DNA of 4,517 bases from a virus. Taxonomy: Duplodnaviria > Heunggongvirae > Uroviricota > Caudoviricetes. The stretch is from IMG/VR virus record IMGVR_UViG_2663763286_000021. The stretch is one strand, 5' to 3'. The translations under genes and the position numbers were made by a program. The notes beneath the pieces are model-generated. The model was not told the origin of the DNA. It saw nothing but the letters and a program-made list of their open reading frames with translations, and ran no database searches. Shown one piece after another: positions 1 to 2,960 of this stretch (the stretch's first letter is position 1; each line of letters starts with the position of its first letter).

Positions 1-2960
1 TGGCCTCTGAAAATCCGGATGAAGCCGGTCGTTACAGCATGGACGTTGAGTACGGTCAGTACAGCGTCATTCTGTTGGTGGAAGGATTCCCGCCGTCACA
101 TGCCGGGACCATCACCGTGTATGAAGACTCACAACCGGGTACGCTGAATGATTTTCTTGGTGCCATGACGGAGGATGATGCCCGTCCGGAGGCACTGCGC
201 CGTTTTGAGCTGATGGTGGAAGAGGTGGCGCGTAACGCGTCCGCGGTGGCACAAAACACGGCAGCCGCGAAGAAGTCAGCCGGCGATGCCAGCACATCTG
301 CCAGTGAGGCGGCAACCCATGCGACTGATGCTGCAGGCTCAGCACGCGCAGCCAGCACGTCAGCCGGACAGGCCGCGTCGTCGGCTCAGTCAGCGTCTTC
401 CAGCGCAGGAACGGCATCAACAAAGGCCACTGAAGCGGAAAAAAGTGCTGCCGCTGCAGAGTCCTCAAAAAGCGCGGCGGCCACCAGTGCCGGTGCGGCG
501 AAAACGTCAGAAACGAATGCCGCAGCGTCACAACAATCAGCAGCCACTTCTGCATCCACCGCGACCACGAAAGCGTCAGAAGCTGCCACCTCAGCCAGGG
601 ATGCGGCGGCCTCAAAAGAGGCAGCGAAATCATCAGAAACGAACGCATCCTCGAGCGCCAGTAGCGCAGCTTCCTCGGCAACGGCGGCAGGAAATTCCGC
701 GAAGGCGGCAAAAACGTCCGAGACGAACGCTAAGTCTTCTGAGACGGCAGCGGAACAGAGTGCCTCCGCAGCAGCAGACTCAAAAACAGCGGCTGCATCA
801 TCTGCCAGCGCCGCGTCAACAAGTGCCGGGCAGGCCTCAGCCAGTGCCACCGCTGCCGGAAAGTCGGCAGAAAGTGCCGCATCGTCTGCTTCAACAGCCA
901 CAACGAAGGCTGGCGAAGCCACTGAACAGGCCAGCGCAGCAGCGAGTTCTGCTTCCGCAGCGAAGACATCCGAAACGAACGCGAAAGCGTCGGAAACCAG
1001 CGCAGAATCCTCAAAAACGGCTGCCGCATCGTCAGCCAGTTCGGCGGCGTCATCGGCATCATCTGCGTCTGCTTCAAAAGATGAGGCGACCAGACAAGCG
1101 TCAGCAGCGAAGAGCAGCGCCACGACGGCATCCACGAAGGCGACAGAGGCAGCTGGCAGTGCGACGGCGGCAGCTCAGAGCAAAAGTACGGCGGAATCCG
1201 CGGCAACGCGCGCCGAGACAGCAGCTAAACGGGCAGAGGATATTGCATCCGCCGTGGCGCTTGAGGATGCGAGCACGACGAAAAAGGGGATAGTACAGCT
1301 CAGCAGTGCGACCAACAGCACTTCCGAGTCACAGGCGGCAACGCCAAAAGCCGTTAAGGCCGCGTATGACCTGGCTAACGGGAAATACACCGCACAGGAT
1401 GCAACGACAGCACAGAAAGGGATAATCCAGCTAAGCAGCGCGACCAACAGCACATCTGAAACGCTTGCCGCGACACCAAAGGCAGTAAAAACAGCCTATG
1501 ACAATGCTGAGAAACGTCTGCAGAAAGATCAGAACGGTGCGGATATCCCTGGCAAAGACACCTTTACGAAAAATATTGGTGCCTGCCGTGCCTTCGGTGG
1601 GTCAGTAAGCACAATAACAGGAAACTGGACGACTGCACAGTTTATCGAGTGGCTGGATTCTCAGGGAGCATTTAACCATCCCTACTGGATGTGCAAGGGT
1701 TCCTGGTCTTATGGCAATAATAAAATCATTACTGATACTTACTGCGGTAATATTCATCTCGCCGGAGCTGTCATTGAAGTAATGGGGATAAAGTCAGCGA
1801 TGACGATCCGCATTACCACACCGACCACCTCCACTGGTGGTGGAACAACTAACGCCCAGTTTACCTATATTAATCACGGAACAGATTATTCACCTGGCTG
1901 GCGAAGGGACTATAACTCCAGAAATAAGCCAACGGCATCAGAGATCGGGGCGTTACCGTCAGGTGGAACAGCAGTATCATCAGTTAATCTGGCTTCAAAA
2001 GGTCGGGTAACCGCGCTGACAGACAATACGCAGGGGGCAACAGGTCTTGAGTTATACGAGGTGTATAACAACGGATATCCAACAGCGTATGGAAATATCA
2101 TTCACCTGAAAGGGATGACAGCCGTTGGCGAAGGTGAGTTACTCATCGGCTGGAGTGGTACAAGCGGTGCTCATGCTCCGGCATTTATTCGTTCACGACG
2201 GGATACGACCGACGCAAACTGGTCGCCGTGGGCGCAGCTTTACACCTCGGCTCATCCTCCTGCAGAGTTTTATCCAGTCGGTGCACCAATCCCGTGGCCA
2301 TCAGATACCGTTCCGTCTGGTTATGCCCTGATGCAGGGGCAGACTTTTGACAAATCTGCCTACCCGAAACTTGCAGCGGCTTATCCGTCAGGCGTGATCC
2401 CTGATATGCGTGGCTGGACGATTAAGGGCAAACCTGCCAGTGGTCGGGCCGTATTGTCTCAGGAACAGGACGGCATTAAATCGCATACCCACAGCGCCAG
2501 CGCATCCAGTACGGATTTGGGGACGAAAACCACATCGTCGTTTGATTACGGCACTAAATCCACGAATAACACTGGTGCGCATACCCATAGTTTAAGTGGC
2601 AGCACGAATGCAGCTGGTAATCACAGCCATAGAGATGGCCGTCGATTTAACCCCAGTGTTTTTAAAGATACTTATCAATATGGTTATACAAGCTCAGGTC
2701 AAAATACCTGGGGTGTACAAGGCTCAGTAGGTATGTCTACGGGGTGGTTAGCTAATACCAGTACAGATGGTAATCATAGCCACTCACTGTCCGGCACAGC
2801 AGCATCTGCAGGTGCACACGCGCATACTGTCGGTATTGGTGCTCATACGCACTCCGTTGCGATTGGTTCACATGGACACACCATCACCGTTAACGCTGCT
2901 GGTAACGCGGAAAACACCGTCAAAAACATCGCATTTAACTATATTGTGAGGCTTGCATAA
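1..2960 (+). CDS. stf: Side tail fiber protein, lambdoid Stf-like, 5' partial (true start is upstream of the window; in-window codons begin at nt 3)
   Basis: The frame is open from nt 3 to the TAA at 2958-2960, and the ATG at 39 is internal (upstream codons read [12 protein letters not shown]). The N-terminal part ([77 protein letters not shown]) and the C-terminal part (GAPIPWPSD...SAYPKLA...[10 protein letters not shown]...[14 protein letters not shown]) match phage lambda Stf as I recall it. Between them lie an Ala/Ser/Thr-rich repeat region and two copies of the conserved fibre motif KGI(V/I)[23 protein letters not shown] tfa gene follows immediately, as expected for stf. Confidence 0.9.
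270..1250 (+). repeat. Imperfect in-frame coding repeats giving an Ala/Ser/Thr-rich low-complexity segment of the tail fiber shaft
   Basis: Recurring peptide units such as [57 protein letters not shown] and [20 protein letters not shown], with matching imperfect DNA repeats (e.g. aaaacgtcagaaacgaatgc, aaatcatcagaaacgaacgc, aaaacgtccgagacgaacgc, gaagacatccgaaacgaacgc). The segment is GC-rich. The long overlapping ORFs in other frames (Pro/Arg/Gln-rich) are a by-product of this composition. Confidence 0.7.
1284..1502 (+). repeat. Tandem duplication of the conserved phage tail-fibre motif (two 29-aa copies separated by a short linker)
   Basis: Copy 1 at 1284-1370 encodes [29 protein letters not shown]; copy 2 at 1416-1502 encodes [29 protein letters not shown]. 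The DNA of the two copies is clearly related but diverged (gggatagtacagctcagcagtgcgaccaacagcac... vs gggataatccagctaagcagcgcgaccaacagcac...). Confidence 0.8.
2481..2883 (+). repeat. His-X-His repeat array in the C-terminal tip region of the tail fiber
   Basis: Seven HxH motifs are visible in the translation: SHTHS, AHTHS, NHSHR, NHSHS, AHAHT, AHTHS and SHGHT. These are interspersed with Gly/Ser/Thr-rich linkers and lie just upstream of the conserved [14 protein letters not shown] end. Confidence 0.75.

What the first reader, a model, noticed from the sequence alone, without database searches (positions are those of the whole stretch)
1510..2280. Tail fiber carries a swapped central module between lambda-Stf-like N- and C-terminal parts
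The N-terminus and the C-terminal tip match lambda Stf, but the roughly 255 aa between the duplicated fibre motif and the GAPIPWPSD segment ([133 protein letters not shown]...[38 protein letters not shown]) does not resemble what I remember of lambda Stf at that position. It is Gly/Thr/Tyr/Trp-rich and contains three Cys, which is unusual for a fibre shaft and suggests a globular beta-rich domain. Module exchange in tail fibers is a known route to altered receptor specificity, so this may be a host-range or glycan-binding determinant.
Basis: partly seen in the sequence, partly recalled or inferred. Interest (0 to 1): 0.45.

Follow-up and report, generated by a model that had tools for sequence, protein, structure and literature searches.

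The report
Known mobile knob domains in Stf
The stretch that differs from lambda's side tail fibre is real, but it is two well-known, widely shared fibre "knob" domains (one already solved in phage Mu), and this exact fibre allele is common in E. coli prophages, so it is ordinary tail-fibre mosaicism.

Summary
Observation confirmed. Stf residues 491-747 (nt 1509-2279) have no detectable similarity to Ur-lambda Stf 398-530, while the N-terminal part (80% identity) and the C-terminal part (71%) do match lambda.

The stretch is not one exotic module. It is two independent globular domains:
- Domain B (aa ~655-745) occurs in P1 Sv', Goslar, SSU5 and the K-12 Qin stfQ remnant.

Database proteins show the orders A, AB, BA and AA. 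The whole module is present, mostly at 99% identity or more, in 800 of 5426 complete E. coli genomes. The whole Stf is 97% identical in isolated phages such as PhiR26_1 and mEp460. A P2-like prophage fibre is collinear with everything from the fibre repeats to Tfa.

The receptor-binding tip is the T4 gp37-like C-terminus (2XGF, E=2e-85), whose hypervariable part lies at nt ~2559-2822. Domains A and B are most likely structural shaft knobs and recombination cassettes. A host-range role is neither supported nor excluded. This is already known biology (Haggård-Ljungquist 1992; Mori 2024). Interest is low.

The parts
1..2960 (+). stf, side tail fibre gene, cut at the 5' end by the window (about 52 codons missing)
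   Evidence: The frame is open from nt 3. 97.8% aa identity to PhiR26_1 Stf aa 53-1025. Pfam PF08400, PF03406 and PF07484.
39..290 (+). C-terminal part of the lambda-type 'prophage tail fibre N-terminal' anchor domain (aa 1-84)
   Evidence: PF08400, E=2.6e-40, profile positions 51-134. 80% identity to lambda Stf 51-352 over aa 1-302.
291..1271 (+). Ala/Ser/Thr-rich repetitive shaft (A 31%, S 20%), about 100 aa longer than in lambda
   Evidence: Composition. DNA match to lambda covers 1-796, then 1102-1359, with 797-1101 unmatched.
1272..1526 (+). Two Phage_fiber_2 repeats (..KGI(V/I)[11 protein letters not shown]..); lambda has one
   Evidence: PF03406, 2 stretches, E=4.7e-38. Motifs at aa 415 and 459. 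Lambda has a single repeat at aa 358-396.
1518..1583 (+). Conserved linker [22 protein letters not shown] that precedes domain A in most homologues and is duplicated in Mu
   Evidence: Alignment A1 columns 350-470. The 8JU3 alignment shows two copies in Mu. 2H10-type alleles stay similar up to nt ~1549-1559.
1578..1958 (+). Domain A (aa 514-640): globular alpha/beta knob holding all three Cys; shared with Mu S', D108 S', P2 H and P1 Sv'
1965..2036 (+). Inter-domain linker (aa 643-666), low-confidence in the model
   Evidence: pLDDT below 50 at model residues 153-176.
2001..2273 (+). Domain B (aa ~655-745): small beta-rich knob (…[14 protein letters not shown]…[16 protein letters not shown]…RSRRD…W..WAQLYTS); shared with P1 Sv', SSU5, Goslar, Vibrio phages and the K-12 Qin stfQ remnant
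   Evidence: tblastn. P1 Sv' aa 47-153, 64%. phmmer domain mapping. 37 invariant columns in A3. pLDDT 70-83 with five strands. Qin DNA 97.3% from nt 2008.
2280..2423 (+). Collar domain; similarity to lambda Stf resumes here
   Evidence: PF07484, aa 748-795, E=6e-12. Lambda DNA match resumes at nt 2280.
2271..2957 (+). T4 gp37-type collar-needle-tip receptor-binding region with HxH repeats
   Evidence: 2xgf_A E=1.9e-85, collinear over all 229 aa. 71% identity to lambda Stf 530-774.
2559..2822 (+). Hypervariable tip insert between the HxH needle strands, where every allele comparison breaks
   Evidence: DNA matches to lambda, 2H10, Chlobot, the P2-like prophage and Qin all stop at ~2557-2599 and resume at ~2764-2823. 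This is the part that diverges from T4 gp37 in the 2XGF alignment.
2960..3541 (+). tfa, tail fibre assembly chaperone
   Evidence: PF02413, E=1.1e-44. 95% identity to lambda Tfa and 90% to the Tfa of the P2-like prophage.

Best explanation
The 257-aa stretch is a pair of independent, evolutionarily mobile globular 'knob' domains (A, aa 514-640; B, aa ~655-745) set into the shaft of a homotrimeric side tail fibre. They lie between the Phage_fiber_2 repeats and the collar/needle/tip. The fibre is a common natural mosaic. It has a lambda-type N-terminal anchor and Ala-rich shaft, then a distal cassette (repeats, A, B, gp37-like tip, Tfa) that also occurs in P2-like myovirus fibres. Shown: the homologies, the domain boundaries, the shuffled domain orders, the population frequency and the fold match to Mu S'. 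Inferred: A and B act mainly as structural trimeric nodes that set shaft length and rigidity and help keep the three chains in register. Also inferred: their conserved sequences and linkers serve as homology patches through which fibres of unrelated phages recombine. On this reading, receptor specificity sits in the downstream gp37-like tip, which folds with Tfa.
Confidence: 0.72

Rival explanations
1. Domain A and/or B is an accessory adhesin: a lectin-like, glycan- or LPS-binding module that contributes to reversible adsorption or host range in addition to the tip.
For: The domains are globular and aromatic-rich, with W and Y far above the rest of the shaft. They protrude from the shaft by analogy with the gp34 P-domains (PMC5537660). 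In Mu, D108 and P1, domain A lies within the invertible variable part Sv' that switches host range. Conservation across enterobacterial phages could reflect a conserved ligand.
Confidence: 0.15
2. The module is chiefly a folding or trimerisation nucleus, or a chaperone-docking element, needed to assemble the long fibre. This role was proposed for the P5 domain of T4 gp34.
Against: The PF21446 score is below the gathering threshold (18.7 against 27 bits). The match spans the A/B junction rather than a single domain. The cognate chaperone Tfa co-varies with the C-terminal tip, not with the centre. Lambda Stf assembles without A or B.
Confidence: 0.1
3. The junctions are an assembly or annotation artefact (a chimeric contig) rather than a real gene.
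For: None beyond the abrupt loss of similarity to lambda.
Against: The ORF is uninterrupted. The identical arrangement occurs in many independently sequenced complete genomes, including a 100% match over nt 1-4136 in CFSAN004176, and in several isolated phages.
Confidence: 0.01

Closest known systems
Side tail fibre Stf of lambdoid phages PhiR26_1, mEp460_ev081, PhiR42_1 and PhiR68_2, and the same allele in E. coli prophages
   Same: Full-length collinear match over nt 1-3523 at 96.5-97.4% DNA identity, with stf followed by tfa. In PhiR26_1 the gene order is J-lom-stf-tfa.
   Different: Only point differences. In the window the gene is followed by a Mn-catalase gene interrupted by an IS, instead of ybcY.
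Ur-lambda Stf (774 aa)
   Same: N-terminal anchor and Ala-rich shaft (80%), Phage_fiber_2 repeat, collar, gp37-like tip (71%) and Tfa (95%).
   Different: Lambda has an unrelated 132-aa stretch (aa 398-530) where the window has the 248-aa A+B pair. Lambda has one fibre repeat, not two, a shorter Ala-rich shaft, and a different hypervariable tip insert.
Phage Mu G(-) tail fibre S' (gp52), PDB 8JU3; also D108 S', P2 gpH and P1 Sv'
   Same: Domain A, together with the preceding NGADIP linker, is 65-85% identical, and the predicted fold matches the crystal structure. P1 Sv' also has domain B.
   Different: These are myovirus baseplate fibres with other N-termini (PF12571 or Sc) and other tips and chaperones (PF12604; U'). 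P1 has the order B then A. P2 H and D108 S' show no sequence-detectable B.
P2-like prophage tail fibre H of E. coli 94_0962 (WP_000108500.1)
   Same: Collinear with window aa 362-973 (72% aa; 86% DNA over nt 1293-2558): repeats, A, B, collar and tip. Its Tfa is 90% identical.
   Different: P2-type N-terminal baseplate-binding domain (PF12571) instead of the lambda-type PF08400. Different hypervariable tip insert.
T4 gp34 C-terminal shaft domains (PDB 4UXE/4UXG/5NXF/5NXH) and the R2 pyocin fibre (6CL6)
T4 gp37 receptor-binding tip (PDB 2XGF)
   Same: The region immediately downstream of the finding (aa 745-973) is collinear with it, E=1.9e-85, including the HxH repeats.
   Different: This concerns the flank, not the finding itself. 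The head/tip insert differs.

Membership tests
Lambdoid side tail fibre (Stf) | N-terminal 'prophage tail fibre N-terminal' domain (PF08400) | tested here: met
   E=2.6e-40, profile positions 51-134. The first ~50 positions lie outside the window.
Lambdoid side tail fibre (Stf) | Gene followed by the tfa chaperone and located after J-lom in a lambdoid tail module | tested here: met
   tfa at 2960-3541 (PF02413). J-lom-stf-tfa in the 97%-identical PhiR26_1 locus. The upstream context is not contained in the window itself.
Lambdoid side tail fibre (Stf) | C-terminal collar plus gp37-like HxH needle/tip | tested here: met
   PF07484. 2XGF E=1.9e-85. 71% identity to lambda Stf 530-774.
Lambdoid side tail fibre (Stf) | Central region collinear with lambda Stf 398-530 | tested here: not met
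   No significant BLASTP, hhalign or blastn similarity. This region varies among bona fide Stf alleles, so it is not really a defining feature.
Mu S' / P2 H / P1 Sv' central fibre domain (domain A; structure 8JU3) | Significant collinear sequence similarity over the whole domain | tested here: met
   8ju3_A residues 183-333 against segment residues 4-154, E=8.1e-73. 65-85% identity to P2, Mu, D108, P1 and PSP3.
Mu S' / P2 H / P1 Sv' central fibre domain (domain A; structure 8JU3) | Same fold | tested here: met
Mu S' / P2 H / P1 Sv' central fibre domain (domain A; structure 8JU3) | Homotrimeric assembly within a fibre | not testable with these tools
   Only monomer prediction was available.
Pfam PF21446 Gp34_trimer (T4 gp34 C-terminal trimerisation domain) | Score at or above the gathering threshold (27 bits) | tested here: not met
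   18.7 bits on the segment and 15.2 bits on the whole protein, spanning aa 604-663 across the A/B junction. 2H10 Stf does meet it, at 95.7 bits.
Pfam PF21446 Gp34_trimer (T4 gp34 C-terminal trimerisation domain) | Fold similarity to solved gp34 | tested here: inconclusive
Carbohydrate-binding module / lectin | Sequence or fold match to a known CBM or lectin family | tested here: not met
Carbohydrate-binding module / lectin | Demonstrated glycan binding | not testable with these tools
   Needs a binding assay.

The most novel reading that the evidence does not exclude
Domain A is a conserved, Cys-containing, aromatic-rich knob with no Pfam family. It is shared by lambda-, P2-, Mu- and P1-type fibres. 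It could be a secondary adhesin that recognises a conserved enterobacterial surface glycan, such as LPS inner core or ECA. It would then give these fibres a common first, reversible contact that is independent of the variable tip.
Probability: 0.1. Interest if true: 0.4.

Novelty: already known. Interest (0 to 1): 0.1.

Why it matters
It matters little as a discovery. Tail-fibre mosaicism among lambda Stf, P2 H, Mu S, P1 S and T4 gp37 has been textbook knowledge since 1992. Domain A has a crystal structure (8JU3, 2024). This exact allele is already present in sequenced phages and in about 15% of complete E. coli genomes.

The practical value is in annotation and engineering. The domain boundaries, conserved linkers and natural junctions mapped here (nt ~1290, ~1490-1560, ~1960-2000, ~2240-2280, and 2559-2822) mark where Stf chimeras tolerate exchange. 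They also show that the specificity-determining tip is downstream of the flagged stretch.

Tried and rejected
- Single-sequence AF2 of aa 471-767 gave an unusable model (pLDDT 32). It was replaced by a 94-sequence alignment model (pLDDT 77).
- Domain B alone against PDB sequences gave no hit.
- A domain-B profile against the PDB gave only non-significant matches (E~0.5) to the WSxWS strand of leptin-receptor FN3 domains. This was rejected as evidence for an FN3 fold.
- hhalign of the domain-B profile against D108 S' matched only the last strand motif (probability 9%). Against lambda Stf 381-550 it matched nothing. A B-like domain in Mu is therefore suggested only by the structural alignment (256 columns in Foldseek) and is left open.
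- PF21446 membership was rejected because the score is below threshold.
- GC content falls from ~0.61 in the Ala-rich shaft to ~0.46-0.52 in the module. This tracks amino-acid composition, so it was not used as evidence of foreign origin.
- Mori et al. 2024 (the 8JU3 paper) is not held in the library. What it says about the function of the domain could not be checked.
- The assembly-artefact reading was rejected.

Full report
**What is in the window**

The window holds most of a side tail fibre gene, stf. The listed ORF is 39..2960, but the frame is open from nt 3, so the gene runs off the 5' end. It is followed by tfa (2960..3541), a fragment of a Mn-catalase gene on the minus strand, and the left end of an IS3-family element.

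Pfam finds five things on Stf:
- the lambda-type anchor PF08400;
- two Phage_fiber_2 repeats;
- a Collar domain at aa 748-795;
- a sub-threshold Gp34_trimer match at aa 604-663;
- a sub-threshold Phage_fiber (PF03335) repeat match at aa 843-856.

**Checking the observation**

The quoted peptides are present, and GAPIPWPSD starts at nt 2280.

BLASTP against Ur-lambda Stf (KT232076, 774 aa) gives these results:
- window aa 1-302 aligns with lambda 51-352 at 80%;
- window aa 745-973 aligns with lambda 530-774 at 71%;
- nothing significant aligns for window aa ~497-745 against lambda 398-530.

At the DNA level, similarity to lambda ends near nt 1489 and resumes exactly at nt 2280. The composition remarks are correct, and all three Cys of the protein lie in the segment.

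**What the segment is**

It is not an orphan. phmmer against PDB sequences gives one strong hit: 8JU3, the phage Mu G(-) tail fibre (S/S'), E=8e-73, covering segment residues 4-154 at about 80% identity.

tblastn against phage genomes splits the segment in two:
- The first ~150 aa recur in P2 H, Mu and D108 S', P1 and P7 Sv', PSP3 and Yersinia P2-like phages at 65-85% identity.
- The last ~100 aa recur in P1 Sv', SSU5, the jumbo phage Goslar, vB_EcoM-Ro157c2YLVW and many Vibrio phages.

PHROG hits show the same split.

I call these pieces domain A (aa 514-640) and domain B (aa ~655-745). In P1 Sv' the order is reversed: B sits at aa 47-153 and A at ~235-358. Among 124 proteins from the big protein search and the fetched loci, the architectures are A alone (73), AB (31), BA (17) and AA (3, in Photorhabdus).

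The partner domains vary. N-termini are PF08400 or PF12571, and tips are PF07484 or PF12604.

**Structure**

A single-sequence model failed. An AF2 model built from a 94-sequence alignment shows:
- a confident alpha/beta domain A (pLDDT ~85-95);
- a disordered linker at aa 643-666;
- a beta-rich domain B (pLDDT 70-83).

The gp34 paper describes such domains as wider beta-prism knobs protruding from the shaft. It suggests that the largest one may nucleate trimerisation (PMC5537660).

**How common it is, and how it assorts**

The 771-nt module is present at 80% coverage or more in 800 of 5426 complete E. coli genomes. The best hit is 99% identical or better in 1129 of 1479 matching records. The whole stf-tfa block is 96.5-97.4% identical in the isolated phages PhiR26_1, mEp460_ev081, PhiR42_1 and PhiR68_2. 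It is 100% identical over nt 1-4136 in strain CFSAN004176.

Independent assortment is visible in several comparisons:
- 2H10, PhiR30_1 and Chlobot share the N-terminal 1370 nt (94%) and the region from nt 2239 onward (84-97% identity). They carry a different centre, which in 2H10 contains a bona fide PF21446 Gp34_trimer domain.
- A P2-like prophage fibre in E. coli 94_0962 has a P2-type N-terminus (PF12571) but is collinear with the window from nt 1293 onward, with a break only at the tip insert (nt ~2559-2822). This covers the repeats, A, B, collar, tip and Tfa (86-87% DNA; Tfa 90% aa).
- The K-12 Qin stfQ remnant matches from nt 2008 at 97%.

'Swapped central module' is therefore true only with lambda as the reference. 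The protein can equally be described as a lambda-type proximal half joined to a distal cassette that circulates among myovirus fibres.

**Where specificity probably lies**

The region right after the finding (aa 745-973) is collinear with the T4 gp37 receptor-binding tip (2XGF, E=1.9e-85). In T4, specificity maps to the head domain of this tip (PMC9659904). Ur-lambda Stf binds OmpC (10.1101/2022.09.30.509847).

In every allele comparison, similarity breaks at nt ~2557-2599 and resumes at ~2764-2823. That interval is the insert between the HxH strands. Domain A behaves in the opposite way. It has 14 invariant and 46 near-invariant positions across 94 proteins that carry different tips.

This pattern fits a conserved structural node better than a specificity determinant. 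The inference is indirect, because no binding data exist here. In Mu and P1, domain A lies within the invertible variable segment.

**Mechanism, best reading**

A and B are trimeric shaft knobs that add length and rigidity and keep the three chains in register. Conserved linkers flank them: [21 protein letters not shown] before A, and [12 protein letters not shown] after it.

Their conserved coding sequence supplies homology patches for recombination between fibres of unrelated phages. RBPseg proposes this for mobile fibre domains (PMC12143355), and relaxed homologous recombination has been shown experimentally at stf between lambda and Rac/Qin (PMC3945230).

The homologies, boundaries, shuffling and frequency are shown. 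The structural and recombinational role is inferred.

**Comparison with the known, and novelty**

Horizontal exchange among lambda stf, P2 H, Mu S, P1 S and T4 gp37 is a classic documented case (Haggård-Ljungquist 1992 and Sandmeier 1992, as cited in PMC3945230). Domain A was solved in 2024 (8JU3; Mori et al., cited in PMC11821841 and PMC11915804). Engineered lambda-P2 Stf chimeras are functional (10.1101/2022.09.30.509847). This allele is already deposited in phage and bacterial genomes.

Verdict: real feature, correct observation, over-read interpretation, already known. Interest is about 0.1. The only residual novelty is the untested possibility that domain A is a conserved accessory adhesin (probability ~0.1).

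Noticed in passing
window 4137-4517 (+) and 3661-4136 (-): An IS3-family element begins at nt 4137 (terminal repeat TGAACCGCCCCGG...; orfA at 4191..). From memory it looks IS629/IS1203-like. It interrupts a manganese-catalase family gene. That gene is intact (296 aa) in strain CFSAN004176, where the match to the window is 100% up to nt 4136 and then stops.
   Followed up: partly
window 2559-2822: Hypervariable insert of the gp37-like tip, between the HxH needle strands. 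All allele comparisons (lambda, 2H10, Chlobot, the P2-like prophage, Qin) lose similarity here. This particular tip variant is itself in 1135 of 5426 complete E. coli genomes. It is the likelier host-range determinant of this fibre.
   Followed up: partly
window 797-1101 and 1272-1526: Compared with lambda, the Ala/Ser-rich shaft carries ~300 nt that do not align with lambda DNA at all. The Phage_fiber_2 repeat is present twice instead of once. The shaft length therefore also varies through repeat expansion.
   Followed up: no
L007 (phage P1) 3573-3820 and 7159-7406: Domain B in P1 matches on both strands at the two ends of the invertible C segment. It therefore lies in the segment's inverted repeats and would be common to both S and S' variants. 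Domain A is unique to Sv'.
   Followed up: no
proteins P0017, P0021, P0060 (Photorhabdus): Tail-fibre proteins with two tandem copies of domain A (architecture AA). This shows the domain can be duplicated within one fibre.
   Followed up: no
window 2239-2280 (aa ~716-747): 2H10-type alleles regain similarity about 40 nt (about 30 aa at protein level) before lambda does. This point is inside the last strand of domain B ([23 protein letters not shown]). Natural recombination junctions therefore do not always respect domain boundaries.
   Followed up: no
L012 (E. coli CFSAN004176) 1-2400: In the genome with the 100% match, stf is preceded by a portal pseudogene and a short tape-measure fragment instead of J-lom. 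That copy therefore sits in a degraded prophage.
   Followed up: no
window 3547-3575: GC-rich hairpin (AAGCCCGC-ttaaaatat-GCGGGCTT) just after the tfa stop, probably the terminator of the tail-fibre operon. The consensus scanner did not list it, because a T-run of sufficient length is lacking.
   Followed up: no
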